A stretch of DNA of 64,000 nucleotides from Chloroflexota bacterium (GTDB lineage: Bacteria; Chloroflexota; UBA11872; UBA12225), in assembly GCA_034437795.1 (NCBI GenBank), contig DAOTTI010000189.1, positions 16,479 to 80,478 on the forward strand, given 5' to 3'. The notes beneath the pieces were generated by a model. It saw nothing but the letters and a program-made list of their open reading frames with translations, was not told the origin of the DNA and searched no databases. Within the stretch, counting starts at the first letter, position 1. Each line of letters starts with the position of its first letter. Of the stretch, positions 32,703 through 49,496 are shown in pieces. Position numbers and translations under genes: made by a program.

Positions 32703-34112
32703 ATGGTCGAACGCGCTTCCGCTCCTCACCGTTCCACCGTTGTCGCCGCCATCAGCCACGGCCCAGCGCCCGCCGGAGATCGTGCCGGCTCACGATCGCC
32801 GACCCGGCGCACGCTCTTGCGCCTGTTTGGCGTCACTGCGCCGCTCCAGGCGGCGTTCACCGCCTGTGGCCAGGCCACGTCGCCGGCGACCAGAGGCGGT
32901 CCTGAGGCGGCCGGCAGCGTGACGTGGGCCTACAGCGCCAATCCCCAGTCCACGGGCTTCGACCGGATCGAGGCCGCCTTCCGGCAGAAGTACCCCAAGA
33001 TCACGCTCGAGGTGCTGAACCAGGCCCAGGACTTCTACGACCAGATGCTGGCCATGTTCGCCGCGGGGAACCCGCCCGACGTCTTCCGGCTGAATGACGA
33101 CTTCGTGAAGGCCTGGTACGTCAAGCACCTCCTCGCGCCGCTGGATGGGTACATGAAGGCCAGTGGCGTGAAGAAGGACGACTACTACGATGCGATCATC
33201 AACTTCCCCGTCCAGGAGGGGAAGGTCGTTTCGTGGTTCCTGGGCGCCAACCCGCGCCTGATCTACTACAACGTAGATCTGTTCAGGCGCTTCGGCGTGT
33301 CCCTCCCGCCGAAGAAGTGGGAGAACACCGGGTGGACATTCGACGACTTCGTCGACACAGCTAGAAAGCTCACCCACCCCAACGAACAGCCACCGATCTA
33401 TGGTGCCGCGGCGTACGACGACACCGGCAACGAACAGACCTTCTCCATCAACAACGGCAGTCCGACCGGCATCTACAGCAAGGACGGGCTCAAGTTCACT
33501 CTGGCCGACCCGCCCGGCTACGAGGCCATCCAGTGGATCGCCGACCTCACCCACAAGCACCGTGTCCAGCCCACCCGCCAGGTCGCGAGCGACCACAAGG
33601 GCACTGATGACATGTTCATCAACCAGATGCTGGCGATGCGGTTCACCAGCACCGGGTTCATCAATCGCATCCGGCGCGACGCCCCCAGCATGAACTGGGA
33701 TGTAGCCCCGATCCCGATGCGAGCGGTTCGCCGGAACGAGGGGAGCATTCAGACCTATGCCCTGGTGGTGGGGGCGAAGAACCCCGACAACGGCTGGCAC
33801 CTGCTGCACTTCTTCACCGAGCAGGAGGTGGCCAGGATCTTCATCGACACCGGCTACGTCATCCCCGCCAAGAAGGCCTTCGCCAAGGACTACATCGCGG
33901 CGCAGAAGAAGGCCAGCCCGTCGCTGAACGCTGAGTTGATCGTCGACTCCTTCAATTACCAGACGCAGCCGAACCAGACGCTTGATACCCCAGCGGCGCG
34001 ACGCATCTACCGAGGGAGCAATCTCAACGAGATCTGGGATGGCCTCGTCACCGCCAAGGAGGGGTTGAATCGGGTCCGCGCCGCCGTTGAGGCGGCCATC
34101 GCGCCAAAGTAG
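32703..34112 (+). CDS. ABC transporter substrate-binding protein (family 1) with a Tat-like signal.
   Basis: ATG 32703 (MVERASAPHRS...RRTLLRLFG...AC). MalE-like motifs. The N-terminal 350 aa of ORF 31653..34112 was rejected as antisense read-through. Confidence 0.85.
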   Translation: MVERASAPHRSTVVAAISHGPAPAGDRAGSRSPTRRTLLRLFGVTAPLQAAFTACGQATSPATRGGPEAAGSVTWAYSANPQSTGFDRIEAAFRQKYPKITLEVLNQAQDFYDQMLAMFAAGNPPDVFRLNDDFVKAWYVKHLLAPLDGYMKASGVKKDDYYDAIINFPVQEGKVVSWFLGANPRLIYYNVDLFRRFGVSLPPKKWENTGWTFDDFVDTARKLTHPNEQPPIYGAAAYDDTGNEQTFSINNGSPTGIYSKDGLKFTLADPPGYEAIQWIADLTHKHRVQPTRQVASDHKGTDDMFINQMLAMRFTSTGFINRIRRDAPSMNWDVAPIPMRAVRRNEGSIQTYALVVGAKNPDNGWHLLHFFTEQEVARIFIDTGYVIPAKKAFAKDYIAAQKKASPSLNAELIVDSFNYQTQPNQTLDTPAARRIYRGSNLNEIWDGLVTAKEGLNRVRAAVEAAIAPK

Positions 34113-35647: not shown

Positions 35648-37090
35648 CTACACTGAGCGGGCGAGCGCGGGCGCCAGGCGCTTTGCCTGTGCCAGAGTCC
35701 GGTCGGCTAGGTCGGTGAAGCGGCTGTCAGTCATGCCGATGACGATCGATTCCAGCCGGTCGTGGAAGTCGCCGACCCACTTGACGGGGAGCCGGCGCGC
35801 GCCGCGCAGCGCGCCCACGAGCGAACCGGCGGTGGCGCCGGTGCAGTCGGTGTCCCAGCCCCCCATCACGGTGAGGCAGATCGCCGGCTCGAAGGGGTCC
35901 TCGCCGCGCTGCGCCGCGCGTTCGGCGTAGAGCAGCCCCATCACCACCAGGGCGGCGTTGTTGATGGTGTGGATGCGGTGGTAATGGCCGTACGCCTGGT
36001 GAATGCGGTCGGTCGTGCGCTGGAAGTCGCCGTCTTCGGCCACCCACTCCATCGTGCGGCGCACCGCCTCGGCGAAGCGGCACTCGGCGGGGATCTCCGT
36101 CAGGCCGATGCGCAGCGCTTCCTCGACCGTCGGCACGGCAAATGACGCCGCCATTGCCGCTGCGAAGAACATCTCGCCGTAGATCCCGTTCTTGACGTGC
36201 GAGAGCGCCGCGTCGCGGTGCGCCAGCTCGGCGGCGCGCTCCGGCGCCCCGGGACAGGCCCACCCCCACAGGTCGGCGCGGATCTGCGCCCCGATCCACT
36301 CGCGGTACGGGTTGCGGTAGGTCGCCGTTGCCGGCGGGCGCAGCCCATTGACCAGGTTGCGGTACGCCGCGCGCTCCGCCGTATAGACCAGCAGGTACGG
36401 CAGCTTGGACTGCCACGCCCGCCCGACGTCCGCGGTCGTGAAGTCCGGCCCGTAGTCCTCCAGCACGTGCAGCGCCAGCAGCGGATAATCCATGTCGTCG
36501 TCGCGCACCATGCGGTCGAACTCCCCGCGAAACCAGCGGCGCGGGCGCTGGGCCAGGCGCTTCACCTCCACCGGCGCATCCGCCGCCTGCGGGTCGACGC
36601 CGCGCGGGAACGGGTAGGGGATGTAGTCGGCCAGCGGATACGCGCCGACATACTGGAGCGCAGCCCGAATCGCGTCACGACTCCAGCCCTCCACAGGCTT
36701 GCCGAGCAGGCACCCGGCCGCACGGCCGAGCCACGCACCCAGGATGCGGTCGCGCAGCTCCGCTTCGGAGAGCGTGAGGGCCAGGCGCCGCGGCCCGTCC
36801 GGCCGCCGCGCCCGGATCTCGTCCAGCGCGGACGGCTCGGGCGGACCTGCCTGCGCCGGCCGTTGGCCCTCGAGGCGGTCGAGGTCGCGGTACAGCGCCT
36901 CCAGATCGGGCGCGGCGCGCTCGACCGCGGCGCGGGACGCCTCGGGGATCGGCCGGTGGGGCTCGATGGCCGGCAGGCCCAGCGCCGCCCACCGGCGCTC
37001 GAACGCCGAGACGTCGTGCCCCTCCTCGCGGCGCTGCGCGATCTCGTGCGGCAAGTACTCCACCAGCAGCTCGGCGCTCAGCATCGTCAC
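35648..37090 (-). CDS. ADP-ribosylglycohydrolase-family protein (DraG/ARH-like).
   Basis: GAWLGRAAGCLLGKPVEGW N-terminal motif and MGGWDTDCTGATAGSLVGA C-terminal metal-site motif. Confidence 0.8.
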   Translation of the reverse strand: MTMLSAELLVEYLPHEIAQRREEGHDVSAFERRWAALGLPAIEPHRPIPEASRAAVERAAPDLEALYRDLDRLEGQRPAQAGPPEPSALDEIRARRPDGPRRLALTLSEAELRDRILGAWLGRAAGCLLGKPVEGWSRDAIRAALQYVGAYPLADYIPYPFPRGVDPQAADAPVEVKRLAQRPRRWFRGEFDRMVRDDDMDYPLLALHVLEDYGPDFTTADVGRAWQSKLPYLLVYTAERAAYRNLVNGLRPPATATYRNPYREWIGAQIRADLWGWACPGAPERAAELAHRDAALSHVKNGIYGEMFFAAAMAASFAVPTVEEALRIGLTEIPAECRFAEAVRRTMEWVAEDGDFQRTTDRIHQAYGHYHRIHTINNAALVVMGLLYAERAAQRGEDPFEPAICLTVMGGWDTDCTGATAGSLVGALRGARRLPVKWVGDFHDRLESIVIGMTDSRFTDLADRTLAQAKRLAPALARSV

Positions 37091-37155: not shown

Positions 37156-38196
37156 CTATGCCGTCTCGCGCACGACCAGCTCGTACGGCAGCACGACGCG
37201 CCGCGGCGCGCGCGCGCCTGCTTCACCGGCCGTGAAGCGCTCGAGCAGCAGCTCGGTGGCGGCGTAGCCCATCTCGTACTTCGGCACCGCCACCGTCGTC
37301 AGCGCCGGCGAGGTCACCGCCGCCTCGGGGATGTCATCGTAGCCGATGATCGCCACGTCGGCTGGGACGCGCCAGCCAGCGGCGCGCGCCGCGTGCAGCG
37401 CCCCGATCGCCATCAGGTCGTTGGCGGCGAAGACCGCCGTGGGCGGCGCGTCGAGGGCCAGCAGCTGGCGCATCGCCGCCTGGCCCCCCTCGCGCGTGTA
37501 GTCGCCCTCCACCATCAGCATGGGCTCGGGTGGGATGTCCGCCTCCGCCAGCGCCTGGAGGTAGCCGCTGGCCTTGGCCGGTCGCGCGTCTGAGCCGCCA
37601 CGGGCCTCTCGTCCACCCGAGGCGGACGGCACCGGTGCCCCCGCGATCAGGCCGATCCGCCGGTGGCCAAGCGCGAGTAAGTAGCGCACCGCGTCGTAAC
37701 CGCCATGCGGCGCCACGGTCACCATGTCAAATGCCGGATCATCGACGCGGGACCCGACCAGCACCACGGGGACGGCGGCGCGATGGAGCGCCGCGAGCAG
37801 CAACTCATGAGGGCCGCCGGCGTCGAGGATCACCCCATCGACCCGGCGCTCCTCGAGCGCCGTAAGTAGGCGCACCTCGTTCTCGGGACGCCGGTCGCTA
37901 TTGCAGAGGAAGACCGAGTAGCCGGCCGCGTCGGCGGCATCCTGGACCCCACGCGCCAGCTGCGGATAGTACGGGTTGCAGACATCGGGGATGATCAGGC
38001 CCATGGCGTACGAGCGACGCGTGCGCAGGCTCCGCGCCAGGCCATTGTGCCGGTAGCCGAGGCGCTCGATAGCCTCTTGCACCCGCGCCCGGAGGGCAGG
38101 ACTGACGTAGCGCGTCCCGTTGAGCACGTGGGACACGGTGGAGATGGAGACGCCGGCGGCGCGGCTGACTTCGGTGATCGAGCAGGCGGAAGCCAT
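37156..38196 (-). CDS. LacI-family transcriptional regulator.
   Basis: ATG 38196 (MASACSITEVSRAAGVSISTVSHVLNG HTH) plus a periplasmic-binding-fold effector domain. The upper part of ORF 37156..39405 was rejected. Confidence 0.85.
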   Translation of the reverse strand: MASACSITEVSRAAGVSISTVSHVLNGTRYVSPALRARVQEAIERLGYRHNGLARSLRTRRSYAMGLIIPDVCNPYYPQLARGVQDAADAAGYSVFLCNSDRRPENEVRLLTALEERRVDGVILDAGGPHELLLAALHRAAVPVVLVGSRVDDPAFDMVTVAPHGGYDAVRYLLALGHRRIGLIAGAPVPSASGGREARGGSDARPAKASGYLQALAEADIPPEPMLMVEGDYTREGGQAAMRQLLALDAPPTAVFAANDLMAIGALHAARAAGWRVPADVAIIGYDDIPEAAVTSPALTTVAVPKYEMGYAATELLLERFTAGEAGARAPRRVVLPYELVVRETA

Positions 38197-38295: not shown

Positions 38296-39699
38296 GTGGG
38301 ATCGACGCCTCGTCTCGGGTCCGCCGCTACCCGCCGGCATCTGCTGCTGGGTGCCGGTGCCGGTGCGGCCACGGCGGCCATGACCGCCTGCGCCATCGGT
38401 CGCAGCGACGCCGGCGACCTCGCGCCCAAGGCCGAGGTCAAGCGGGGCACGACGCTGCAATGGATGTACTGGTCGACGCCGGGCCCGTGGCTGGAGGCCA
38501 ACCAGCAGGAGGCCGCCGAGTTCGAGAAGAAGCACGCCGGCCTCGGCCTCAAGATCGAGCAGCTGAACGTGCCGTCCGGCCAGCCCTTCCTCGACAAGCT
38601 CACCTCGCTCGTCGCCGCGGGCACGCCACCAGACGTGGCCGAGATCATGCCCTGGGACGTTCCGCAGTTCCAGGCGAAGAAGACCTTGCTCAACCTCTCC
38701 CCATACCTCAAACGGGACAAGTACGACCTCTCCGACTTCTTCGCCGCCGGCTTCGATCAGTACCGCTGGACGGCGGACGGCAAGCCGGGCGGCGCCATCG
38801 GGGCCGATCTGTGGGGCGTCCCGCGCGACTTCCCCACACGTGCGCTGGGCTACAACACCGACCTTTTCCAGGCCGCCGGCGTCAAGCTGCCCGCCGCCGG
38901 CTGGAACGACGCCGCCTGGACCCCGCAGGCGTTCCTCGACGCCGCGCTGCGCCTCACCCGGCGCGACGGCAACGGCCCCAATGGCGTCGGCGTCTGGGGC
39001 TGGCATGGCCACGAAGGGCTGCAGGAATGGATGCCGTGGGTCTTCAACCATGGCGGCGACTTCGTCTCGCCCGACGGCCGCGAGAGCCGCTTCGACCATC
39101 CCAAGACCATCGAAGCCTTCCAGTTCCTCGCCGACCTGCAGCACAAGCACAAGGTGGCGCCCACCCCGCAGCAGCGTCCGGCGGAGGGGGCGATGGACCA
39201 GGCCTTCTTCCACGGCCGGCTCGCGATGCACCACTTCGGTCCGGCCCAACTCGGCCGGTATCGCCAGAACACCCAGGGCTTCACCTTTGACGTCGCCGTC
39301 TGGCCGCACACCGTGGTGCCCGGCACTGCCGTCGGCTCGGGGTCCGGCTGGCTGGTGCTCGCCGGCACGCGCGACCCCGAGGCCTCCTGGCTGCTGATCC
39401 AGCACCTGCTCAGCCCCGAGACGCAGCGGACCGATGCCGAGGCCGGCAGCGGCGTGCCGGTGCGCAGGTCCATCATGGAACAGGTCTTCATCCGCCAGCC
39501 CGCACCGCCCAAGAACGTGCGGGTGTTCATGGATAATGCGCAGGTGGCGCGCCTTGTGCCCCAGGTGCCCAACTGGACGCCGATGATGGAGGTGGTCACC
39601 CGCGAGTTGCCCGCGCTCTGGCGGGGCGAGAAGACCGCGCGCGAGGTCTGCAGCGAGATCAAACGCCAGGTCGATCCCATCCTGAAGCAGTCCCTCTAA
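38296..39699 (+). CDS. ABC transporter substrate-binding protein (family 1).
   Basis: 467 aa. Tat/lipoprotein N-terminus (RRHLLLGAGAGAATAAMTAC). Confidence 0.85.
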   Translation: MGSTPRLGSAATRRHLLLGAGAGAATAAMTACAIGRSDAGDLAPKAEVKRGTTLQWMYWSTPGPWLEANQQEAAEFEKKHAGLGLKIEQLNVPSGQPFLDKLTSLVAAGTPPDVAEIMPWDVPQFQAKKTLLNLSPYLKRDKYDLSDFFAAGFDQYRWTADGKPGGAIGADLWGVPRDFPTRALGYNTDLFQAAGVKLPAAGWNDAAWTPQAFLDAALRLTRRDGNGPNGVGVWGWHGHEGLQEWMPWVFNHGGDFVSPDGRESRFDHPKTIEAFQFLADLQHKHKVAPTPQQRPAEGAMDQAFFHGRLAMHHFGPAQLGRYRQNTQGFTFDVAVWPHTVVPGTAVGSGSGWLVLAGTRDPEASWLLIQHLLSPETQRTDAEAGSGVPVRRSIMEQVFIRQPAPPKNVRVFMDNAQVARLVPQVPNWTPMMEVVTRELPALWRGEKTAREVCSEIKRQVDPILKQSL

Positions 39700-39877
39700 A
39701 CCCAGTGGAAAGTGACACGTTCTACGTTCACAGCAGGGAAGCCCGCACGTTCTCCCTCGGCTTCGGTTGAGGCGCTGCCGGGCTCCTGGTTCCTCGTTCC
39801 TCGTTCTTCGTTCGTCGTTGGCAGCTGGCCTGGCGGCGACGACAAACTACTTGACGGCCTGTGTTGAGATCACCGCG

Positions 39878-41332
39878 ATGACCGCACCTCGGCCCAACAT
39901 CCTGGTCCTCATGACGGATACGCTCCGCCCGGATTACGTGCCCGGCTACCGCCGCCCCTCGGACACCGAGGGCCTGCCGGGTACACTCATCTCGCGCCTC
40001 GGACTCGGCGCCCGCACCCCTGTGATGGACGCGTTTGCCGCCGAGTCGGCCGTCTTCGAGCGCGCCTACGCCGCCTCGTTCCCCACCGTGCCTAATCGGA
40101 ACGATCTACACACCGGCCGCTTCACCTTCCCCCACCGCGGCTGGTCCCCCCTGCCCTCTGACTTGCCGTGTCTGGCCGAGGCGATGAATCGCGCCGGCTA
40201 CGCGACCCAGTTCTTTTGTGATACGCCAAACCAGGTCCCCATGGGCCTCCACCGCGGCTTCCAGGGCTGGGAGTGGCACCGCGGCCAGGAGGGCGACCGC
40301 GCACGGAACGACCCGCGCATCAAGGTCGACGATCTTGGCTGCGCCCCCGAGAAGCTGCGTGGCAACGGCGCCGCCTATCGCCAGCATCTGCGCAACCGTG
40401 CCTACTGGCAGGGTGAGGAAGACCACTACGCGCCGCGCACCATCCGCTCCGGCATCACCTGGCTCCAGCAACACTGGGAGGGCGACCGGCAGCGGCCGTT
40501 CTTCTTGTGGCTGGACACATTTGATCCGCACGAGCCGTGGGACGCGCCACCCTACTACACCGAGTGGTACGATCCGGGCTACGACGGGGAGGTGCTGGCT
40601 CACGCCAACTACGGCCGCGCCGACTACATGACCGAGCGTGAGCGCCAGCACGTCAAGGCGCTCTACGCCGCCGAGATCTCGATGGTCGACAAATGGTTCG
40701 GCCGCCTGCTCCAACAGCTCGACGACCTTGGCTACCGTGAGAACACCGCCGTCTTCCACCTCTCCGACCACGGCCACTACTTCGGTGACCACGGCCTCCA
40801 GGGCAAGCCCTTCCGCGAGCTCCTCTGGTTCTACGAGGGGCTGATCCGCATCGCCCTGACCGTCCGCCTCCCCGACGGGCGAGGCGCCGGGCGCCGGGTG
40901 CCGTCGCTGGCCCAGCCGCCCGACGTGACGGCCACCATCCTGGCCCTGGCCCAGGCAGAACTCCCTGGGGTACAGGGGCGCTCGCTGCTGCCGACGATCG
41001 ATGGTGGCGAGGCGCCCCGCGAGCTAGCCTTCACCAGTCGCTACCCCATCCTGGCTGGGGAGGTGACGCCCTGCGCCATCACCACTCTCGAATGGAGCTA
41101 CCAGTACTGGCCGGGGGCACCAGAAAAGGAGCGCCTCTATCACCTGGCCAGCGATCCGGGCCAGGAGCAAGACCTGCGCGCCACGCAGCCGGAGGTGGCC
41201 CGCGAGCTGCGCGCCGCCTACCTGGGGTGGTTGCGCGAGCAGCACGCGGCGATGGCGACATGGCTACAGGCCATCGAGCGCGACCCGTCATACCGGCCGG
41301 ACCCAGGGCAGCTATTCCGCGGCATGCTCTAG
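39878..41332 (+). CDS. Sulfatase-family (alkaline phosphatase superfamily) hydrolase with Thr in place of the formylglycine-forming Cys (TVPNR where CxPSR is expected).
   Basis: NILVLMTDTLRPDY metal-site N-terminus. The signature aligns as SFPTVPNRNDLHTGR against the canonical SPVCSPSRAALLTGR. Confidence 0.75.
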   Translation: MTAPRPNILVLMTDTLRPDYVPGYRRPSDTEGLPGTLISRLGLGARTPVMDAFAAESAVFERAYAASFPTVPNRNDLHTGRFTFPHRGWSPLPSDLPCLAEAMNRAGYATQFFCDTPNQVPMGLHRGFQGWEWHRGQEGDRARNDPRIKVDDLGCAPEKLRGNGAAYRQHLRNRAYWQGEEDHYAPRTIRSGITWLQQHWEGDRQRPFFLWLDTFDPHEPWDAPPYYTEWYDPGYDGEVLAHANYGRADYMTERERQHVKALYAAEISMVDKWFGRLLQQLDDLGYRENTAVFHLSDHGHYFGDHGLQGKPFRELLWFYEGLIRIALTVRLPDGRGAGRRVPSLAQPPDVTATILALAQAELPGVQGRSLLPTIDGGEAPRELAFTSRYPILAGEVTPCAITTLEWSYQYWPGAPEKERLYHLASDPGQEQDLRATQPEVARELRAAYLGWLREQHAAMATWLQAIERDPSYRPDPGQLFRGML

Positions 41333-41802: not shown

Positions 41803-42035
41803 CGGTTCGACCGACCGCTCGCGCGGGTTCTTGCAGCGCAGTCCTCACCCTCTTCCCAGAGAGGGGATCCTGCACCCCCGGAGCATCAGCGCCACGGGAA
41901 AGTGGCTTGCCATATCAGGAACCCGGGCTGGTGGAACAGCACACTACTCCCCGCAGCTGAGGTAGGCCGGCGATGGAAGTAAGCAAGGCAATGCCGACAA
42001 TGGAAGCAATGGTCGCGACGCCATCGCAAGGCGTC

Positions 42036-43394
42036 ATGGCGCGTACTTCACGGCCGACGCGCCGTGCGGCCCTGGCCACCTTGATGGGCGCAGGCACGGC
42101 CGGCGCCGCAACCGCCATGAGCGCCTGCGCCGGGCCGGGGGCGCCCCCGCCGGGCGCCTCACGGGCCGCCAGGCCGGCGACCATCGAGGTCCTGCACGAG
42201 TTCGGGCCGAACAGCTCGGACGGGCGATGGATGGGCGAGCTACTGGAGCGCATCCGCCAGCTGGCGCCCCACCTCACAGTGAAGTCGACGGTTACCTCCG
42301 GCTCATCGTGGGACGTGCTGCAGACGATGCTGGCGGCCGGGACGGCGCCGGACGTGTCCGAGACCTATGTCGCCAACGGGGCCAGCCTAGGCGCCAAGAA
42401 GATTGCCGAACCCCTGCAGACTGCCCTCAAGTCGGCCAGGGACTGGAGCCCGAGCGACTACTTCGACGGCCCGCGCGAGGCCTTCACCTACCGCGGGGAC
42501 TTCGTCCTGGCACCGATGTTTACCGCCCCGATGGCGGTGGCGGTGAACCAGGATATGCTCAGCCGCGCTGGCCTGGCGCTGCCGTCGCCGGCCTGGACCT
42601 GGGAGACGTTCACCGATTACGCCGTGAAGCTGACCAGGCAAACCGGCGGCCAGGTGGAGGTCTACGGCGCGGCCATGCCGACCACCAACGGGTTTGGCGC
42701 GATGAACTTCTTCGGCGGCCCCCTGTGGAGCCACGGCGGCGACTGGGCCGATCGTGAGCGAGGCGTGGTCACCTTCCACCGGCCGGAAGGGGTGGCCGCG
42801 CTGGAGATGTGGGTCAGCATCGCCCTGAAGCGCCAGGCCGCTCCCACGAGCCAGCCAGCGAACTGGCAGGGCCTGTCCGGCACGCCGTTCTCGAACGGGC
42901 TGGCCGCGATGGCCTTCATCGCCAGCCCGGCCGTAAGCAATTACCTGCGGCAAGTGACGTCCTTCCCCTGGGCGACGGTACAGATGCCGCGCCAGAAGCA
43001 GCAGGGTTCCCATTTCTACGCCCATGGCTTCTTTGCCCTGCGTGCCGCCAGAGAAAAGGAGGCGGCCGTCGAGTTTGTGCGCCTGGCCAGCCTGCCCGAG
43101 CACGTCGCCCACTGGAATATCGCGTCCTTTGGCATGCCGACGCGCAAATCGGCGGCGGCGCGGAAGGAATGGCAGGACCACTTGCGCACCCAGCCCCACC
43201 TGGCTGCCTTCAACGAAAGCCTGAAATACATGCGGGGCTACCCGCCCCTGCCCGGCTGGAACGAGGCGTCCGTGGGGCCGGAAGGGATCGGCCAGGCCCT
43301 GATCGACGCCGTCCAGGGCAAGGCGGCGCCCCGCACCGCACTCGAGGAAGCGGCGCGGCGCGCCGATGCCCTTCTCGCGCAGCAGCCCAGGTAA
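42036..43394 (+). CDS. ABC transporter substrate-binding protein (family 1), Tat-like signal.
   Basis: MARTSRPTRRAALATLMGAG start, MalE-like. Confidence 0.85.
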   Translation: MARTSRPTRRAALATLMGAGTAGAATAMSACAGPGAPPPGASRAARPATIEVLHEFGPNSSDGRWMGELLERIRQLAPHLTVKSTVTSGSSWDVLQTMLAAGTAPDVSETYVANGASLGAKKIAEPLQTALKSARDWSPSDYFDGPREAFTYRGDFVLAPMFTAPMAVAVNQDMLSRAGLALPSPAWTWETFTDYAVKLTRQTGGQVEVYGAAMPTTNGFGAMNFFGGPLWSHGGDWADRERGVVTFHRPEGVAALEMWVSIALKRQAAPTSQPANWQGLSGTPFSNGLAAMAFIASPAVSNYLRQVTSFPWATVQMPRQKQQGSHFYAHGFFALRAAREKEAAVEFVRLASLPEHVAHWNIASFGMPTRKSAAARKEWQDHLRTQPHLAAFNESLKYMRGYPPLPGWNEASVGPEGIGQALIDAVQGKAAPRTALEEAARRADALLAQQPR

Positions 43395-43664: not shown

Positions 43665-44705
43665 ATGCCCCGTAGTGATGGCGACCGCGTGCCCACCATT
43701 GACCAGTTCACCGGCGCGCTGCTTGGCCTGGCCATCGGCGACGCCCTGGGCCGGCCGACGGAGGGCCAGCGCCATGATGAGATCCGCGCCCAGCCCCGCG
43801 AGGCGCTGCTGACCTTCCGCGCCTATCGCGACGGCCGGCTGGGCCGGATCCTGCCGCCCGGCTCCTGGAGCGACGACACCCAGCAGGCGCTGCTCCTGGC
43901 GGACTCCCTGGTCGCCGGCCGCGGGCTGGACGCCCAGGACTTTGCCGACCGCATGTACGCCCTGTGGCGGTCCGGCGCGGCCCGTGGCTACGGGCGCGTC
44001 TACCAGCAGGCGATGGCGCGGCGCGATGCCGGCCAGCCCTGGGAGCGCGCGGCCGTCGAAGACGACGTGATGAACGGCGCCGCCATGCGCATCGCTCCCC
44101 TGGGGCTCTTCTACTGGTTCGACCCCGCCGCCCTGGCCGACGCCGCCGCCCGCTCCAGCCGCGTCACGCACCGCCACCCGTCCGCCGTCGCCGGCGCCAT
44201 CGGGGTTGCCCAGGCTTTCGCCTATGCCCTGACGCACACCGAACTCGACCCTGACGCCTTCGTCGCTGCGCTGCGCCGGCAGGTAGCGCCCGTCGATGCG
44301 GGGACGGCCGAGCACCTGGCACTGCTGCCCCGTGCGGTCCCCCTGGACCTGGATGACGCCTTCGCGCTACTCAGCCAGGTACCCGAGTTCGCCTCGCCGC
44401 CGGCTGGGGGGCGTGGCCGGGGCATCGGGGGCATGACCATCAGCCTGCTGCTGGGGGCCACTTATCTCTTCCTGCACACGGGTGGCGACTTCCGGCGGGC
44501 GGTGGAGGGGGCGATCCTGCTCGGCGGGGATACCGATGGCACGGCCGCCACCGCGGGGGCCCTGTGCGGCGCCTGGCGCGGGACGGCCACCCTGCCGGCG
44601 GAGCTGGCCGAGACGGTGGAGGAAGCGGAGCGGATCCGCGTCCTGGCGGTCTTGCTCCAGGAGCGATCGCTCTGGGCCGCGCGGTCATCGCCGGCGCTCG
44701 ACTAG
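43665..44705 (+). CDS. ADP-ribosylglycohydrolase-family protein (second copy).
   Basis: GALLGLAIGDALGRPTEG and LLGGDTDGTAATAGALCGA motifs. Confidence 0.8.
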   Translation: MPRSDGDRVPTIDQFTGALLGLAIGDALGRPTEGQRHDEIRAQPREALLTFRAYRDGRLGRILPPGSWSDDTQQALLLADSLVAGRGLDAQDFADRMYALWRSGAARGYGRVYQQAMARRDAGQPWERAAVEDDVMNGAAMRIAPLGLFYWFDPAALADAAARSSRVTHRHPSAVAGAIGVAQAFAYALTHTELDPDAFVAALRRQVAPVDAGTAEHLALLPRAVPLDLDDAFALLSQVPEFASPPAGGRGRGIGGMTISLLLGATYLFLHTGGDFRRAVEGAILLGGDTDGTAATAGALCGAWRGTATLPAELAETVEEAERIRVLAVLLQERSLWAARSSPALD

Positions 44706-44992: not shown

Positions 44993-46987
44993 CTAGACCA
45001 CGCCCGCGACCACCCGCTCCAGCAGGAAGCGGCGCGTGCCGTCGTCAAGACCATAGTCGCGGTAGTTGACGCGCAGGTTATAGAGCACGTGGCGCTCGCG
45101 CCCGCGCTCGAGCTGTGCCCACAATCGCCCAGCCTCGCCTTCTGGCAATGCGCGCGCCACCGGCCGGATGTTGCAGGACGAGCCGGCGGGAACGAAGCCG
45201 CGTGGCGCGCAGAGGTGCTGGTAGAGGCGCATATATTTACCGGTCAGGCGCCAGGGCAGGTCCGACGGCTTGCTGGCCCAGGCAGCCTGCGGCTCCTCGC
45301 CGGCGATCTGGCCTCCCTGGCCAAGGGTAAAGAAGCGCATACCGGCGGCGGTCACCACCTCCGTGCTGAAGACGATCCGTGGCAGCCGGCGCCGCACGGC
45401 GGCGAAGAAACCGGCCTCGTCCCACCGCCAGAGTAGCGAGGCGTCCACGTGCACCGCGTCGATACCGAACTCCTCGACCGTTGGCGCCAGTTGGGCCAGA
45501 TAGGCGTCGTGCCACTGGGGCGAATCGACGTCCATGCCGACAATCGGCGCCGTCCATGCTCCCGTGAATTGCACCGCGTCTGCCACCGCGTACCAGCCGC
45601 CATGCAGGTCGGGTAGCGTACCCTCCTCGCCGCCGGCGTTCGCGGGGCAGCCGAAGCACTCCACCTGAACGACGTTGACCCCCTGCCGGAACAGGAATGG
45701 AAAGGGGAAGCGGTAGCGGTCGTGGTGGCGGAACCACTGCGGGAGCGTAACCAGCGTTCGGCCGTTGAGCGTCAGGCGGATGATCCCATCCCCCACCCAC
45801 GGCAGCCCGCCAAGCGTGAGCACCGCCTGGCACGTCTGCGGCAGGGGCACCGTCTCGAAGCTCCAGCCACCGGCGGCCGGCCGCACGTTGCGGAGGGGCT
45901 CACGCCCCGTGCGGAAGTCGAGCGGGCGTGCGGGAGCGCCGCCCGGCCAGCCGACGTAGGGGCCGCACAGCCGGTCGCGCGGGTGGTGCGGCTGGGCGCG
46001 CACCGCCAGATGAGCCAGCCGGTCGAAGCCGGGCCGGTACGGATCGGCCCCCCAGGCAAGCGTATGCACCATGGCCCGGTAGCCGCCGTCATGCAGCGCG
46101 TCGATCGCCTCACGGAAGCCCGCCCGGCCGCCCAGTTCCGGCGCCGGCACGTAATCCGGATAGCCGCGGTCGTACGGCGCGCACCAGCCGGGCAGGTAGA
46201 ACAGCGCGCCGGGTGGGACCCCCAGCTCCTTGAGCTCCCGCGCCAAGTCTCGGAGGTGAGTGTACGTGTGCGCCACCTCGCCGTGCGGGCGCCATAGATC
46301 GAAGGTGAAGACGATGGGGATCTCCAGCACCCAGGCCGGCACGTCCCCCGCGGCGACCTGCTCTGCCAGCGAGCGCAGGCCGTAGGTCTGGCGTAGCCAG
46401 GCGTGGTGGCTGGCCACGGCCGCATCCATGGTCGGCCAGTATTGCACCGTCAGCGGATCCTCGGCAGCCCACTCGAAGCAGAGCAGGAAGCCGTCTCCCG
46501 TGCGCCGCACGGCCGCCGACGGCCGGCGGGGCGTGACATGCTCCAGCAGCCCGCCGCCGCCACGATCCGTCCCCACAGCCTCCAGCGGCGCTCGCGCAGC
46601 GATCTCCAGCCAGCCATCCGGGCCCAGATCCACGAGTACGAGTGGATAGGCCAGCCAGAGCAGGCCGAAGAAGTTGAGGCCCGCACGGTAGCTCTCTCCC
46701 GCCGGCATGTCACGGTCGATGCGCGTGCCGGCGTTCCAGGAGCACGGCAGGTGGATCACCGCCCGCTCGGGGAGCGGCACGTCCAGGGTGGCGCGGTCAC
46801 GCCCGCGCGGGTCATCGGGCGGCGCCTCGCGCGGCGGCAGTCGCAGGGTGAGGCCGTGCGCCCCTTCCTGCCATGCCGGCGCCTGCGAGGCGCCGCCCCG
46901 CCGCACCCGTGCCCCACGGACGACCTCCCAGATCGCTGCGGACCATGAGCGAACCCCCCGTCGCTCTCCCTTGCCGGCCTCACTCAC
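44993..46987 (-). CDS. Conserved ~660 aa protein of unknown function, possibly a TIM-barrel glycoside-hydrolase-like fold. Paralog of 61883..63765.
   Basis: Collinear similarity with the 61883 gene along the whole length (GGGG box, VFTFD.W.P.GEVAH.YTHLRDLAR.LK.LGVPPG, YLPGW, HTLAWGADP, FGVDAVHVDA.LWRWDE.GFFAA.RRRLP). 27 nt downstream of the sulfatase gene on the same strand. Confidence 0.7.
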   Translation of the reverse strand: MSEAGKGERRGVRSWSAAIWEVVRGARVRRGGASQAPAWQEGAHGLTLRLPPREAPPDDPRGRDRATLDVPLPERAVIHLPCSWNAGTRIDRDMPAGESYRAGLNFFGLLWLAYPLVLVDLGPDGWLEIAARAPLEAVGTDRGGGGLLEHVTPRRPSAAVRRTGDGFLLCFEWAAEDPLTVQYWPTMDAAVASHHAWLRQTYGLRSLAEQVAAGDVPAWVLEIPIVFTFDLWRPHGEVAHTYTHLRDLARELKELGVPPGALFYLPGWCAPYDRGYPDYVPAPELGGRAGFREAIDALHDGGYRAMVHTLAWGADPYRPGFDRLAHLAVRAQPHHPRDRLCGPYVGWPGGAPARPLDFRTGREPLRNVRPAAGGWSFETVPLPQTCQAVLTLGGLPWVGDGIIRLTLNGRTLVTLPQWFRHHDRYRFPFPFLFRQGVNVVQVECFGCPANAGGEEGTLPDLHGGWYAVADAVQFTGAWTAPIVGMDVDSPQWHDAYLAQLAPTVEEFGIDAVHVDASLLWRWDEAGFFAAVRRRLPRIVFSTEVVTAAGMRFFTLGQGGQIAGEEPQAAWASKPSDLPWRLTGKYMRLYQHLCAPRGFVPAGSSCNIRPVARALPEGEAGRLWAQLERGRERHVLYNLRVNYRDYGLDDGTRRFLLERVVAGVV

Positions 46988-47013: not shown

Positions 47014-48657
47014 TCACTCGTGGCCCTCGTTCCTCGCCAGTCGCTCCTCGCTCCGCGCTCCTTCTCCTCGCCCCGGCTGCTTGGTCACGAAGGGATGGTT
47101 GGGCGTTTGCAGGTGCTCCCGTAGCCACGGCCGCTTCTCGGCGGGCAGGCCCCCGCGCGGCCCGATCAGGTAGCGGGCGGCCCCCCACATCAGCTGCGTG
47201 TATGGATCATAGTGCTCAAACATTAACGCCCACAGCGCGTCGCGCAGGTCCTGCGCCACCTCGGCGTACGCCGGCTCATCGATCACGTTGCGCACCTCGC
47301 CCGGATCGGCCTCTAGGTCGTACAGTTCATCCCAGTCGAAGCCGTTGAAGACGTACTTGTAGCGCTGGCCAATGGCGATGCGCTGGGTGTAGAGCAGCTC
47401 GCAGCCGTAGTAGCAGTTGAGCCGGTAGGCCGGCCAGTCCGCTTCGGCCGCCTCGGGGCGCATCATCAGGGGCAGCAGGTCGCGACCGTCGGCGTGGGGC
47501 AGCGCCGGCGCCCCCGCCACGGCGGTGAAGGTATGCGCCAGGTCCTGTAGCTGGACCAGCGCGTGCGTTCGGCTCCGCGCCGGGATCACGCCCGGCCAGC
47601 GCGCCACCAGCGGGATGCGGATCGTCTCCTCGTAGGGCGTCCAGCCCTTGACCATACAGCGGTGGGCGCCCACGTTGTCCCCGTGGTCGGCGGTGAAGAC
47701 GGTCAGGGTGTTGTTCACCTGGCCCACCTCCCTGAGCGCATCAAGGACGATCCCCACCGCCGCATCCACCTGCTGGCAGTAGGCGTAGAAGTGGCGCAGC
47801 ACCTCCCGCACGTCTTCGGGCGACAGTTCCTGCCACAGGCTGGCCTCGCGCGCCAGGAGCCGCGGCTTGTTCTGAAAGGTTTCCTCCAGGTAGTTCCTGG
47901 GGATTTCCACATCCTCCGGCCGGTACTGCGCCAGGAACGTCAGCAGGGGCTTATAGGGGTCGTGGGGCTCGGGGAAGTGCACCTCAATGTGCCAGGGGCG
48001 GCCGGACGCGGCGTACTCGCGGATCAGCTGCGCCGCCGTGGTGGCAATGTGGTACTCCTGCGTCGCCTCGAACTCCCCGTCGATCTCCAGCCACAGGGTG
48101 TGCGTGTCGCCCCCGGGCCAGGTGACCGACCGGCGCCGGACCACCTCGTAGCGCCGGCGGGTGTCGCGAATGGTCGGGCCATAGCCGTCCACCCGGTTGC
48201 GCCGCGCCGCCTCCGGGGTGAGCGTAACCTGGACCGGCGCGCGGTACTCGTGGTAGCCGAAGTCCAGCGGGCCCCGCAGGCGGCTGGCGTGCCACTTGCC
48301 CACATAGCCCAGGCGGTACCCCACCTGGCGCAGGCGCTGAGAGAAGGTCTCGACGTCCGGCGCCAGATCGGGATTGAGCGACATCGGTACGTGCACCTGG
48401 TGGTAGACGCCGTTGTGCCAGGGGTAGGCCCCGGTGAGCAGGGCGGCGCGGGCGGGGCAGCAGATCGGCACCGGCGTGGAGGCGCGCTCACAGCAGAGGC
48501 CCTCCGCTACCAGCGCGTGCACGTGAGGCGTGCGGCACACCGACCGACCGGCAATCGTGTCCCAACGCATGTGGTCGCCGGTGATCAGCAGGATGTTCGG
48601 TGGCCCCGGTGGGGCAGGCGGGCCGTTCAGGCCCGACCGGTCAGCGTGGGTAGTCAT
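47014..48657 (-). CDS. Sulfatase (canonical Cys-type; CCPAR FGly motif).
   Basis: NILLITGDHMRWD N-terminus, and PICCPARAALLTG signature. Confidence 0.85.
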   Translation of the reverse strand: MTTHADRSGLNGPPAPPGPPNILLITGDHMRWDTIAGRSVCRTPHVHALVAEGLCCERASTPVPICCPARAALLTGAYPWHNGVYHQVHVPMSLNPDLAPDVETFSQRLRQVGYRLGYVGKWHASRLRGPLDFGYHEYRAPVQVTLTPEAARRNRVDGYGPTIRDTRRRYEVVRRRSVTWPGGDTHTLWLEIDGEFEATQEYHIATTAAQLIREYAASGRPWHIEVHFPEPHDPYKPLLTFLAQYRPEDVEIPRNYLEETFQNKPRLLAREASLWQELSPEDVREVLRHFYAYCQQVDAAVGIVLDALREVGQVNNTLTVFTADHGDNVGAHRCMVKGWTPYEETIRIPLVARWPGVIPARSRTHALVQLQDLAHTFTAVAGAPALPHADGRDLLPLMMRPEAAEADWPAYRLNCYYGCELLYTQRIAIGQRYKYVFNGFDWDELYDLEADPGEVRNVIDEPAYAEVAQDLRDALWALMFEHYDPYTQLMWGAARYLIGPRGGLPAEKRPWLREHLQTPNHPFVTKQPGRGEGARSEERLARNEGHE

Positions 48658-48788: not shown

Positions 48789-49460
48789 CTACGCCCGGCC
48801 ATCAGGCGGGCGTCCGTCGGTCTGACCGTGGCTCTCGACGTCGCCGTCCCAGCCCAGCCACCGGACAAACTCGGTGTGGGGGCGCCTCGGTTTCTCCGGC
48901 AGCGTCGCCTGCGGATCGGGGTACCCCACATAGATGAAGCCGACGAGCTGCGCCTCCGGCGGCAGGCCCAGGAAGCGCTTGGCGTGCTGCGACTCTGTGC
49001 CGTTGGAGCGCCAGTAGGCGGCCAGGCCCATGGCATGGGCGGCGATGAGGATGCTCTGCATCGCGGCCGCGGTAGCCGCCAGATCCTCCCAGGGTGGCAC
49101 GTGCGGGTGAGCCCCCGGGACGGCCGCCACAACGATCACGACGGGCGCCCGCGTGAAGGAGAGCGGGACATGCTTGCGGCGCTGCGCCTCGGCCTCAGGG
49201 GTGGGCGCCGGCCAGCGCCGCAAGCCCTCGTCCATGATCACCTCACCCAGGCGCAGGCGCGCCTCACCCCGCAGGACGAAGAAGCGCCACGGCTGCGTCA
49301 GGTAGTGGTTGGGGGCATGAGTGGCCGCCTCCAGTAGCGTGTCAATCACCGCCCGGGGCGGCTCCCTGTCCGGCAGCACGTGCGGCTGGCTGCGGCGGGT
49401 GCGGATGACGTGCAGGACGGTTTCGGCGACCGTGGCGGGAAGGGCAGGTAGGGTCGTCAT
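48789..49460 (-). CDS. Nitroreductase-family protein.
   Basis: TRRS...P and RSQP-like FMN-binding N-terminus, with a nitroreductase fold. ATG at 49460. Confidence 0.7.
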   Translation of the reverse strand: MTTLPALPATVAETVLHVIRTRRSQPHVLPDREPPRAVIDTLLEAATHAPNHYLTQPWRFFVLRGEARLRLGEVIMDEGLRRWPAPTPEAEAQRRKHVPLSFTRAPVVIVVAAVPGAHPHVPPWEDLAATAAAMQSILIAAHAMGLAAYWRSNGTESQHAKRFLGLPPEAQLVGFIYVGYPDPQATLPEKPRRPHTEFVRWLGWDGDVESHGQTDGRPPDGRA

Positions 49461-49479
49461 AGGCAAGAAGACACGCACG

Positions 49480-49496
49480 GATTGTATACGATCGAC
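49480..49496. promoter_or_regulatory. Palindromic motif copy 2 (gattgtatacgatcgac), ending 20 nt upstream of the nitroreductase start on the minus strand.
   Basis: Direct reading. Confidence 0.45.

What the first reader, a model, noticed from the sequence alone, without database searches (positions are those of the whole stretch)
39878..41332. Sulfatase-family protein with Thr at the formylglycine (nucleophile) position
The protein aligns to type I sulfatases at the N-terminal metal site (NILVLMTDTLRPDY). But the signature reads S-F-P-T-V-P-N-R-N-D-L-H-T-G-R where canonical enzymes have S-P-V-C-S-P-S-R-A-A-L-L-T-G-R.

The Cys (or Ser) that is converted to FGly is replaced by Thr, and the Ser of CxPSR by Asn. 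Within the alkaline phosphatase superfamily, a Thr nucleophile is the hallmark of NPP-type phosphodiesterases.

So this may be a sulfatase-scaffold phosphodiesterase or phosphonate-monoester hydrolase, not a sulfatase. The bona fide Cys-type sulfatase (CCPAR) is at 47014-48657. The nitroreductase-family gene downstream of that one is not an anaerobic sulfatase-maturase type, and no FGE gene is seen.
Basis: partly seen in the sequence, partly recalled or inferred. Interest (0 to 1): 0.55.

Follow-up and report, generated by a model that had tools for sequence, protein, structure and literature searches.

The report
Sulfatase-fold enzyme with threonine nucleophile
This gene belongs to a large, overlooked group of proteins in bacteria and archaea that are built like sulfatases but carry a fixed threonine where the special formylglycine residue should be, so databases that call them arylsulfatases are probably wrong about how, and perhaps on what, they work.

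Summary
ORF 39878-41332 (+), 484 aa, has a full S1 sulfatase fold (AF2 pLDDT 94.5; best PDB matches are all FGly sulfatases or phosphonate monoester hydrolases). Four independent alignments put Thr70 (ACC, 40085-40087) on the formylglycine column.

The Thr is a family trait:
- It is present in 113/113 close-to-distant homologues.
- It is present in 124/134 representatives of 50%-identity clusters.
- The family spans many bacterial phyla and archaea.

Other changes go with it. The sulfate-binding Lys of the canonical K-W-H becomes an invariant Asp115. The second metal residue becomes Thr or Ser. An acidic DPHEPWD loop is fixed. D14, R74, H218, D297, H298 and K310 are retained.

A small Cys-bearing subgroup (S[FY]PCMPAR) sits inside the same clade. 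One of these genes lies directly after an anSME-like gene.

The genes are mostly cytoplasmic. They sit in LacI or sugar-ABC-importer operons, often beside canonical carbohydrate sulfatases.

My best reading (about 0.4) is a metal-activated Thr nucleophile doing phosphoryl or phosphonyl transfer on an imported sugar ester. A formylglycine-free sulfuryl transfer (about 0.25-0.3) cannot be excluded.

I found no paper describing this clade. I rate it a new variant of a known kind, of moderate to high interest.

The parts
39878..41332 (+). Thr-type S1-sulfatase-fold gene (484 aa, no signal peptide)
   Evidence: ORF. Pfam PF00884 at 3.2e-26. AF2 pLDDT 94.5, pTM 0.94. Foldseek best hits are FGly sulfatases and PMHs, TM 0.65-0.72.
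40085..40087 (+). Codon ACC = Thr70, at the formylglycine (nucleophile) position within S67-F-P-T70-V-P72-N-R74
   Evidence: alignments; sequence. Invariant in 113/113 homologues and 124/134 cluster representatives.
39917..39922 (+). Asp14-Thr15. Asp14 is the N-terminal metal ligand. The second position is Thr or Ser where canonical enzymes have D/Q/H.
40097..40099 (+). Arg74, the Arg of the xPxR signature, invariant
40220..40231 (+). Asp115-Thr-Pro-Asn118, replacing the canonical Lys-Trp-His. Asp115 is invariant. Position 118 is His in 65% of Thr-type members and Asn here.
   Evidence: MAFFT with 24 canonical sulfatases. Profile alignment to 5g2v. Counts. The hhalign placement in this segment was ambiguous.
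40514..40543 (+). Asp213-T-F-Asp216-P-His218-Glu219-P-W-Asp222 loop. His218 matches the conserved sulfatase His. The acidic residues are specific to this family.
40766..40807 (+). Asp297-His298-Gly (C-terminal metal ligands), His305 and Lys310
38296..39699 (+). CUT1-type extracellular solute-binding protein directly upstream on the same strand. It is the likely uptake partner.
   Evidence: Pfam SBP_bac_1/8. The closest solved relative is the arabino-oligosaccharide-binding protein 6rjy, 1e-33. An orthologue (63% identity) lies next to the 75%-identical homologue in L081. SBP-permease-permease-gene operons recur in 8 or more distant loci.
37156..38190 (-). LacI-family regulator, divergent from the SBP/Thr-type pair
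   Evidence: Pfam LacI + Peripla_BP. An orthologue (55% identity) is next to the homologue in L081-L083. LacI also heads the L027 operon.
35648..37090 (-). ADP-ribosylglycohydrolase-family protein. It is a context gene kept in the close orthologous locus only.
   Evidence: Pfam PF03747 at 3.6e-51. 31% identity to the upstream gene of L081. Absent from distant loci.
47014..48657 (-). Canonical Cys-type S1 sulfatase (I-C66-C-P-A-R, G-K-W-H, A-D-H-G), cytoplasmic. It serves as an in-window comparator and possible pathway partner.
   Evidence: The closest PDB hit is the exo-2S-iota-carrageenan sulfatase 6pt4, 6e-45.

Best explanation
The gene encodes a cytoplasmic member of a large clade of S1-sulfatase-fold proteins. 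In this clade the Cys/Ser that is normally oxidised to formylglycine has been replaced by a fixed threonine.

It therefore needs no maturase and cannot use the aldehyde-hydrate mechanism of type I sulfatases.

Most likely it is a metal-dependent ester hydrolase working as follows:
1. A divalent metal is held by Asp14, Thr70, Asp297 and His298.
2. The metal activates the Thr70 hydroxyl.
3. Thr70 attacks a phosphorus centre (phosphodiester, phosphonate monoester or phosphomonoester) on a sugar-derived substrate.
4. A covalent phospho-threonine intermediate forms and is then hydrolysed.
5. Arg74, His218 and Lys310 hold the transferred group.
6. Asp115 and the acidic DPHEPWD loop either bind a second metal or bind a cationic or hydroxyl part of the substrate.

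The substrate would be imported by the adjacent LacI-controlled CUT1 ABC system.

Shown: the fold, the residue identities, their conservation and the operon context. Inferred: the metal, the covalent intermediate and the nature of the transferred group.
For: The fold is S1 sulfatase/PMH.

Thr70 lies on the FGly column and is family-wide.

The retained ligand set D14/T70/D297/H298 is the same as the conserved metal site of Thr-nucleophile phosphoryl transferases. This comparison with LtaS, EptA/MCR-1 and the NPP M2 site rests on established knowledge. MCR-1 and PF00884 Thr-bearing members are noted in PMC5175174 and PMC5066984.

The sulfate-binding Lys of K-W-H is an invariant Asp. The FGly-specific His is no longer conserved: 80/124 His, and Asn in this protein.

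No FGE or anSME lies next to any of about 75 Thr-type genes in 80 loci, nor anywhere in the window. The Cys-bearing sibling in L043 is directly preceded by a Radical_SAM+SPASM gene.

Thr-type genes sit in the same operons as canonical Cys-type sulfatases that still need a maturase (L027, L036, L004). Losing FGly is therefore not explained by lack of maturation. This points to a different chemistry.

Both FGly (in PMHs) and Thr are known to support phosphodiester and phosphonate hydrolysis. This fits a Cys-Thr switch inside one otherwise constant active site.

The cytoplasmic, importer-linked context is shown. HAD and PAP2 genes are immediate operon partners in a few loci.
Against: No activity data exist.

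The genomic theme is sulfate rather than phosphate:
- 22 canonical sulfatases lie within 10 kb of Thr-type genes.
- APS-kinase and arylsulfotransferase genes are neighbours.
- Cys siblings of the clade sit in operons with canonical sulfatases and a SulP sulfate permease.

The sulfate-binding residues Arg74, His218 and Lys310 are all retained.

A type I sulfatase with an unmodified nucleophile can still turn over sulfate esters: choline sulfatase, kcat 0.27 s-1 (PMC6189696).

No phosphorylated carbohydrate substrate is suggested by the solute-binding protein. Its closest solved relative binds arabino-oligosaccharides, and the UgpB model scores far below its cut-off.

A second metal site is only a guess. 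Model coordinates could not be inspected.
Confidence: 0.4

Rival explanations
1. It is a formylglycine-independent sulfuryl-transfer enzyme. Thr70 attacks the sulfur of a sugar sulfate and forms a sulfo-threonine intermediate. That intermediate is then hydrolysed (sulfatase) or passed to an acceptor (sulfotransferase). The enzyme would work alongside the canonical sulfatases of the same loci.
For: Thr-type genes share operons or neighbourhoods with canonical carbohydrate sulfatases in several phyla.

APS-kinase and arylsulfotransferase genes are direct neighbours in some loci.

Cys-bearing clade members lie with canonical sulfatases and a SulP permease. They share the Thr type's sugar-importer context.

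Arg74, His218 and Lys310 are retained.

Unmodified-Cys choline sulfatase shows multiple turnovers (PMC6189696). EfAS C61S keeps 20-35% activity (PMC12421950).
Against: Every characterised Ser/Thr-nucleophile member of the AP superfamily transfers phosphoryl or phosphonyl groups (established knowledge).

FGly-to-Ser sulfatases were reported to trap the sulfo-enzyme. This is Recksiek et al. 1998, cited in PMC6189696. I did not read the paper itself.

The sulfate-binding Lys is replaced by an invariant Asp.

Co-encoded Cys-type sulfatases show that a maturation system is available, so there is no obvious reason to give up FGly for the same chemistry.

No SulP homologue is found in the 80 Thr-type loci.
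Confidence: 0.27
2. Thr70 is post-translationally oxidised to a ketone (2-amino-3-oxobutyrate). This would be a methyl analogue of formylglycine. Its hydrate would act like the FGly gem-diol.
For: The whole maturase recognition signature apart from the Cys is kept: T-x-P72-x-R74-x4-T-G, with P72 and R74 invariant or nearly so.

Cys and Thr forms interchange within one clade.

The SulfAtlas authors note that Thr oxidation would give a ketone (PMC5066984).

From memory only, not verified here (one search found nothing): anSME was reported to oxidise threonyl peptides to ketones in vitro.
Against: No radical-SAM/SPASM or FGE gene lies next to any Thr-type gene. One does lie next to a Cys sibling.

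The His needed for the FGly elimination step is not conserved in Thr-type members.

P72 and R74 also have structural and catalytic roles, so their retention needs no maturase.

Ketone hydrates are much less favoured than aldehyde hydrates (chemical knowledge).
Confidence: 0.04
3. It is a soluble group transferase rather than a hydrolase. It would be an LtaS/EptA-like phospho-alcohol transferase acting on cytoplasmic sugars. Alternatively it is a non-catalytic binding or regulatory protein that has kept the fold.
For: Thr-nucleophile enzymes in PF00884 (LtaS, EptA/MCR-1, OpgB) are transferases (established knowledge; PMC5175174).

Some loci carry biosynthetic neighbours: a GT4 glycosyltransferase and a Wzy-type ligase.
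Against: There is no membrane domain. The closest folds are hydrolases.

The dominant context is catabolic: LacI, sugar importers, Gfo/Idh/MocA, glycosidases.

Near-invariance of all metal ligands and pocket residues across bacteria and archaea argues against a non-catalytic role.
Confidence: 0.1

Closest known systems
Type I (S1) formylglycine-dependent sulfatases, e.g. P. aeruginosa arylsulfatase, BT4656 GlcNAc-6-sulfatase (5g2v), BT1918 S1_46 (7oz8)
   Same: Same two-domain fold (Foldseek E about 1e-27, TM about 0.7; profile hits up to 1e-50). Same positions for the N-terminal Asp, the xPxR Arg, the PH-loop His, the D-H-G metal ligands and the late Lys.
   Different: The nucleophile is Thr, not Cys/Ser-derived FGly. 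The Lys of K-W-H is an invariant Asp. The second metal Asp/Gln is Thr/Ser. There is an extra acidic DPHEPWD loop and an inserted R-G-F-x-G-W-x-W-x-R-G-Q-E segment. Scores within the family are at least 355 bits, against at most 176 bits for any solved sulfatase.
Phosphonate monoester hydrolases / phosphodiesterases of S1_0 (RlPMH 2vqr, BcPMH 2w8s, ArPMH 4uph) and Mn-dependent EfAS (9koq)
   Same: These are the top structural matches. They have a His rather than Asn as fourth metal ligand (D-H-G; PMC12421950). They are soluble and cytoplasmic. They show that this scaffold can do phosphoryl or phosphonyl transfer.
   Different: They use FGly (Cys-x-P-x-R). This family uses Thr. Sequence identity is only 19-22%.
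LtaS / EptA (MCR-1) / OpgB-type transferases within Pfam PF00884
   Same: They have a Thr nucleophile on the same helix N-terminus, with an Asp/Glu + Thr + Asp + His metal site. They need no maturase. They establish that Thr plus one metal in a sulfatase-type domain cleaves phosphodiesters through a covalent intermediate (established knowledge; SulfAtlas remark on Thr-bearing PF00884 seed sequences).
   Different: Those enzymes are membrane-anchored and carry T-x-N-x-E rather than T-x-P-x-R. They lack the S1 C-terminal subdomain and do not appear among the top 50 structural or top 60 sequence-profile matches.
Nucleotide pyrophosphatase/phosphodiesterases (NPP, PF01663)
   Same: They have a Thr nucleophile followed by x-P-N (T-F-P-N-H in NPPs, recalled from memory; T-V-P-N-R here) and ...T-G nine residues on. 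They share the superfamily core.
   Different: The Pfam PF01663 match covers only residues 255-300 around D-H-G. The fold neighbours are sulfatases, not NPPs. A bimetallo Zn site is not demonstrated.

Membership tests
S1 formylglycine-dependent sulfatases (SulfAtlas S1) | Catalytic signature (C/S)-x-(P/A)-x-R, with the Cys or Ser converted to formylglycine | tested here: not met
   The position is Thr70 (T-V-P-N-R) in four independent alignments. Thr cannot give formylglycine (PMC5066984).
S1 formylglycine-dependent sulfatases (SulfAtlas S1) | N-terminal metal-binding pattern ending [DE]-[DQ]-[LMQVH]-[GRANTDS] (PMC5066984) | tested here: not met
   The sequence is D14-T15-L-R. The first Asp is present. 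The second position is Thr here, and Thr or Ser in 131/134 family representatives.
S1 formylglycine-dependent sulfatases (SulfAtlas S1) | C-terminal metal ligands D-(N/H/Q)-G | tested here: met
   S-D297-H298-G299. Asp is present in 133/134 and His in 132/134 representatives.
S1 formylglycine-dependent sulfatases (SulfAtlas S1) | Two-subdomain alpha/beta sulfatase fold | tested here: met
   AF2 model pLDDT 94.5. All top 50 Foldseek PDB hits are S1 sulfatases or PMHs, with E values from 2e-27 to 4e-22.
S1 formylglycine-dependent sulfatases (SulfAtlas S1) | Lys/His pair (G-K-W-H) that binds sulfate and drives FGly-sulfate elimination | tested here: not met
   The canonical K-W-H columns are D115-T116-P117, followed by N118. 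The profile alignment to 5g2v gives D for K and consensus H/N for H. The hhalign placement was ambiguous.
S1 formylglycine-dependent sulfatases (SulfAtlas S1) | Dependence on FGE or anSME | tested here: inconclusive
   There is none in the 64-kb window and none beside Thr-type genes in 80 loci. Whole genomes could not be searched.
Phosphonate monoester hydrolases (S1_0) | FGly nucleophile with Asp/FGly/Asp/His metal site | tested here: not met
   The His ligand and the fold match, but the nucleophile is Thr.
Phosphonate monoester hydrolases (S1_0) | Hydrolysis of phosphonate monoesters and phosphodiesters | not testable with these tools
   This needs an enzyme assay.
LtaS/EptA-type PF00884 transferases | Thr nucleophile plus acidic/Thr/Asp/His metal site | tested here: met
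   D14, T70, D297 and H298 are conserved. The correspondence to LtaS/EptA residues comes from established knowledge and was not aligned here.
LtaS/EptA-type PF00884 transferases | N-terminal multi-pass membrane domain and T-x-N-x-E type motif | tested here: not met
   The protein starts 6 residues before the first beta-strand. The motif is T-V-P-N-R. No such structures appear among the top matches.
NPP / type I phosphodiesterase (PF01663) | Full-length match to the NPP domain with a bimetallo Asp/His/His + Asp/Thr/Asp/His site | tested here: not met
   PF01663 matches only residues 255-300 (profile positions 183-221 of 342), 29 bits. A second metal site is unverified.

The most novel reading that the evidence does not exclude
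The Thr-type clade consists of genuine sulfate-ester-processing enzymes (sulfatases or sulfotransferases) that work without formylglycine, through a sulfo-threonine intermediate. They would be widespread in Chloroflexota, Planctomycetota, Poribacteria, Bathyarchaeia and other groups.

This would overturn the rule that S1-fold sulfatases need FGly. It would also provide a maturase-free route to desulfation in the cytoplasm.
Probability: 0.25. Interest if true: 0.85.

Novelty: new variant of a known kind. Interest (0 to 1): 0.6.

Why it matters
1. Annotation. These proteins are named 'arylsulfatase A-like enzyme' or 'sulfatase' in IMG and NCBI. Surveys that take PF00884 as 'formylglycine-dependent sulfatase' count them as sulfatases (for example PMC9723792). 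Sulfatase inventories of Chloroflexota, Poribacteria, Planctomycetota and Bathyarchaeia are therefore probably inflated or mis-typed.

2. Enzymology. One clade keeps an otherwise constant active site but carries Thr in about 93% of its cluster representatives and Cys in about 5%. That is a natural nucleophile-swap experiment. It bears directly on why sulfatases need formylglycine, and on how function moves between sulfuryl and phosphoryl transfer in the alkaline phosphatase superfamily.

3. Physiology. The enzyme is a conserved last gene of LacI-controlled sugar ABC importer operons. It therefore marks an unrecognised step in the cytoplasmic processing of decorated carbohydrates.

Tried and rejected
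- Corrected alignment. I looked for one that would put a Cys or Ser on the FGly column. None was found. The S67 register lacks the Arg.

- Signal peptide or lipobox. The longer TTG start (39767) gives an L-T-A-C lipobox-like string, but a poor hydrophobic core. Homologues and public gene calls start at the ATG, so I treat the protein as cytoplasmic. A minority of family members do carry Tat-like leaders.

- UgpB/UgpQ analogy (imported glycerophosphodiester). Not supported. The SBP is closest to an arabino-oligosaccharide binder, and the UgpB model scores 20-40 bits against a cut-off of 411.

- Universal operon partner. Clustering of 1,039 neighbour ORFs from 80 loci gave no universal partner. 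The most frequent were PhyH (10 loci, mostly related Poribacteria and Latescibacterota), ABC permeases (8) and Gfo/Idh/MocA (7).

- PhyH as a sign of phosphonate catabolism. Not pursued. No HD-domain partner was seen.

- ADP-ribosylglycohydrolase link. It holds only for the 75%-identical orthologue, not for distant loci.

- Loss of the FGly-specific His as a correlate of Thr. The trend is 80/124 against 7/7. It is not significant (Fisher p = 0.09) and is phylogenetically confounded.

- Domain fusions. There is one 1,450-aa protein with an NMT1/THI5-like domain plus two sulfatase domains. A single case that may be an assembly artefact is not informative.

- Literature. Six searches found no description of a T-x-P-x-R S1-like clade. 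The search for anSME acting on threonyl peptides found nothing in the held library.
Full report
**1. The observation**

The window has about 70% G+C. ORF 39878-41332 (+) encodes 484 aa from an ATG. A TTG at 39767 would add 37 residues. Public gene calls for the identical protein use the ATG (P0001), and homologues start at the equivalent position.

Thr70 is ACC at 40085-40087.

Pfam gives PF00884 Sulfatase at 3.2e-26. There is also a short PF01663 match around D-H-G. NCBIfam gives only far-sub-threshold hits to arylsulfatase, choline-sulfatase and PehA models.

**2. Is Thr really at the formylglycine position?**

Four independent alignments say so:
- phmmer against solved sulfatases (4uph, 7stt);
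- hhalign of the family profile against the window's own Cys-type sulfatase;
- MAFFT L-INS-i with 24 canonical Cys-type sulfatases;
- hmmsearch of the family profile against PDB.

The AF2 model (pLDDT 94.5, pTM 0.94) starts a helix at residue 70. That is the standard nucleophile location in the alkaline phosphatase (AP) superfamily. S67 is out of register and lacks the Arg at +4.

**3. It is a family, not an accident**

A word-indexed search found 2,037 proteins at E <= 1e-10. The best 120 (39-100% identity, 345-1,153 bits) all show S-[FY]-P-T-[VIL]-P-x-R.

Invariant or nearly invariant residues include D14, R17, D19, S67, T70, P72, R74, W89, D115, P117, D213, D216, H218, E219, D222, D297, H298, G299, H305, G309 and K310.

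A full HMMER scan of 1.84 billion cluster representatives returned 150 top hits, all at 355 bits or more. The same profile gives at most 176 bits to any solved sulfatase.

Among 134 full-length representatives, position 70 is:
- Thr in 124;
- Cys in 7;
- Ser in 1.

Of the 80 loci kept, 11 are archaeal: Bathyarchaeia, Brockarchaeota, Marsarchaeota, Caldivirga, Halobacteriales and Thermoprotei. The rest span Chloroflexota, Planctomycetota, Poribacteria, Armatimonadota, Latescibacterota, Bacillota, Spirochaetia and others. The closest relatives of the window protein are Chloroflexota MAG proteins.

**4. What else changed**

Aligned with canonical enzymes:
- The G-K-W-H Lys is Asp115 in every Thr-type sequence.
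- The Trp-His positions are Thr-Pro followed by His/Asn/other.
- The residue after the first metal Asp is Thr/Ser instead of Asp/Gln/His.
- The loop around the conserved His218 is D-P-H-E-P-W-D, with fixed acidic residues.

Shared with canonical enzymes are D14, R74, H218, D297-H298 and K310.

The profile alignment to BT4656 (5g2v) pairs D115 with the Lys, and the consensus His118 with the His. hhalign was ambiguous in this segment because of a 17-residue family-specific insertion.

His118 is present in only 80/124 Thr-type representatives and is Asn in this protein. It is present in all 7 Cys-type ones. The difference is not significant (p = 0.09).

Structurally, the nearest solved proteins are ArPMH 4uph, EfAS 9koq, BT1918 7oz8, choline sulfatases and RlPMH 2vqr (TM 0.65-0.72, 17-23% identity). 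No LtaS/EptA or NPP structure is in the top 50.

**5. Cys-bearing siblings**

Seven cluster representatives and two genomic loci carry S-[FY]-P-C-M-P-A-R, together with all the family hallmarks (D115, DPHEPWD).

In a neighbour-joining tree rooted on 11 canonical sulfatases, the family is monophyletic. The Cys members form one nearly contiguous group nested among Thr members. The tree has no support values, so I treat the direction of change as open.

One Cys sibling (L043) is directly preceded by a Radical_SAM+SPASM gene with the C-N-L-D-C-D-Y-C-F-Y motif typical of anSME. No such gene, and no FGE-like ORF, lies beside any Thr-type gene in the 80 loci or in the window.

Other Cys siblings sit in these arrangements:
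- LacI-TctC-[sibling]-TctB-TctA-canonical sulfatase-[sibling]-DUF4432-SulP (L086);
- ROK-permease-permease-SBP-DUF4432-[sibling]-sulfatase (L090);
- GH4-GH38-[sibling]-ferredoxin (L088).

**6. Context of the Thr type**

In the window the order is:

| Coordinates | Strand | Gene |
|---|---|---|
| 35648-37090 | - | ARH-family |
| 37156-38190 | - | LacI |
| 38296-39699 | + | CUT1 SBP |
| 39878-41332 | + | Thr-type gene |
| 41973-43394 | + | second SBP |
| 43665-44705 | + | second ARH |
| 44993-46987 | - | DUF6259 protein |
| 47014-48657 | - | Cys-type sulfatase |
| 48789-49745 | - | nitroreductase |
| 49676-51208 | + | third SBP |
| 51337-52683 | + | enolase-superfamily protein |
| 52744-54258 | + | Gfo/Idh/MocA |

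The 75%-identical orthologue keeps orthologous ARH-like, LacI and SBP genes in a rearranged order. A 49%-identical relative overlaps its SBP gene by 4 bp.

In distant Chloroflexota and Bacillota, the recurring arrangement is SBP-permease-permease-Thr-type gene on one strand (L049, L027, L070, L074, L073, L042 and others).

Canonical Cys-type sulfatases are frequent neighbours: 22 within 10 kb. Sometimes they are in the same operon, as in L027 with LacI-permease-permease-SBP-Thr-type-Cys-type. There the Cys-type partner is GlcNAc-6-sulfatase-like. The window's Cys-type enzyme is closest to an exo-2S-iota-carrageenan sulfatase.

Other immediate partners are heterogeneous: BNR/sialidase-like, HAD hydrolase, PAP2, APS kinase, arylsulfotransferase, aldose epimerase, arabinofuranosidase and Gfo/Idh/MocA. 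There is no universal partner.

The window SBP is closest to an arabino-oligosaccharide-binding protein, not to UgpB. Most members have no leader peptide. A few have Tat-like leaders.

**7. Mechanism**

*Shown:*
- an S1 fold;
- a Thr at the nucleophile site that cannot become formylglycine (the SulfAtlas authors make the same chemical point, PMC5066984);
- conserved ligands D14/T70/D297/H298;
- conserved R74, H218 and K310;
- a charge-reversed K-to-D115, plus extra acidic residues;
- cytoplasmic, importer-linked, LacI-regulated expression.

*Inferred:* a metal-activated Thr alkoxide attacks an anionic ester and forms a covalent intermediate.

*Which ester?*

Chemical precedent favours phosphorus. 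All characterised Ser/Thr-nucleophile members of the superfamily transfer phosphoryl or phosphonyl groups. These include AP, NPP, PafA, PhnA, phosphopentomutase, LtaS and EptA/MCR-1.

Both FGly (in PMHs) and Thr can hydrolyse phosphodiesters and phosphonate esters. This would make a Cys-Thr switch inside one pocket functionally neutral.

Thr-type genes are also co-encoded with Cys-type sulfatases that still need a maturase. Abandoning FGly is therefore unlikely to be a way of escaping maturation for the same reaction.

Context, however, points to sulfated carbohydrates. A type I sulfatase with an unmodified nucleophile still turns over choline sulfate at 0.27 s-1 (PMC6189696). EfAS C61S keeps 20-35% activity (PMC12421950).

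My probabilities are:
- phosphoryl/phosphonyl hydrolase, about 0.4;
- FGly-free sulfuryl transfer, about 0.27;
- soluble transferase or non-catalytic protein, about 0.1;
- Thr-derived ketone cofactor, about 0.04;
- the remainder unassigned.

**8. Comparison with known families**

By fold and sequence the protein is nearest to S1 sulfatases and PMHs. It fails three S1 defining features: the C/S-x-P-x-R nucleophile, the D-[DQ] pattern and the K-W-H pair. It should not be filed as a type I sulfatase or a PMH.

It works like the Thr-nucleophile members of PF00884 (LtaS/EptA) with respect to nucleophile and metal site. It lacks their membrane domain and their T-x-N-x-E motif. It is not an NPP by domain or fold.

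No paper in the held library describes a T-x-P-x-R S1-like clade. SulfAtlas only remarks that many PF00884 seed sequences carry Thr (the TXNXE group) and are uncharacterised.

**9. Verdict**

The finding is a new variant of a known kind: a widespread, mis-annotated Thr-for-formylglycine clade of the S1 sulfatase fold, with a built-in natural Cys/Thr comparison.

Interest is 0.6. Enzymologists working on the alkaline phosphatase superfamily, and people counting sulfatases in metagenomes, would want to know about it. Its substrate remains open.

Noticed in passing
window 48789-49745 (-) and 47014-48657 (-), 44993-46987 (-): A nitroreductase-family flavoprotein gene, the cytoplasmic Cys-type sulfatase and a 664-aa DUF6259 protein lie head-to-tail on the minus strand, with gaps of 131 and 26 bp. 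No FGE or anSME is in the window, so how this leaderless Cys-type sulfatase is matured is unexplained. Whether the nitroreductase-fold enzyme plays any part is pure speculation. A weak nitroreductase hit occurred in only one of 80 other loci.
   Followed up: partly
window 35648-37090 (-) and 43665-44705 (+): Two ADP-ribosylglycohydrolase-family genes flank the LacI/SBP/Thr-type module. An ARH-like gene is also kept next to LacI in the 75%-identical orthologous locus L081, but not in distant loci. Their substrate in a sugar-uptake locus is unknown.
   Followed up: partly
window 38296-39699, 41973-43394, 49676-51208 (+); also tblastn hits at about 32900-34100 (+) and 192-1427 (-): At least five CUT1-type solute-binding protein genes occur in 64 kb. 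I annotated no ABC permease genes next to the three near the finding. The binding proteins may be orphans that share a transporter encoded elsewhere.
   Followed up: no
window 39788-39818: The intergenic region upstream of the Thr-type gene contains four tandem heptads, GTTCCTC GTTCCTC GTTCTTC GTTCGTC. This could be an operator-like or slippage-prone element. Its function is unknown.
   Followed up: no
L043:8716-9900 and L043:9998-11452: In a Gammaproteobacteria MAG, a Radical_SAM+SPASM (anSME-like) gene sits between a canonical sulfatase and a Cys-bearing member of the Thr-type clade. This is a useful natural control for maturase dependence.
   Followed up: yes
L088:9548-9823; L036:12710-13786; L037:11415-12530: Small redox proteins directly follow clade members in several unrelated loci. 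They are a 2Fe-2S ferredoxin that overlaps a Cys sibling by 4 bp, and Thioredoxin_4/DsbA-like proteins after Thr/Cys-type genes. The meaning is unknown.
   Followed up: no
L011:11451-12788: In Caldivirga sp. MU80, a Thr-type gene is followed 2 bp later by a degenerate paralogue. It keeps Thr but has lost Arg74, Asp115, Glu219 and Lys310 (T-P-S-F...). It may be a pseudo-enzyme partner.
   Followed up: no
P0268 (1,450 aa, metagenomic): A single protein fuses an NMT1/THI5-like (SsuA/TauA-type binding) domain with two sulfatase-family domains. It may be a real fusion or an assembly artefact.
   Followed up: no
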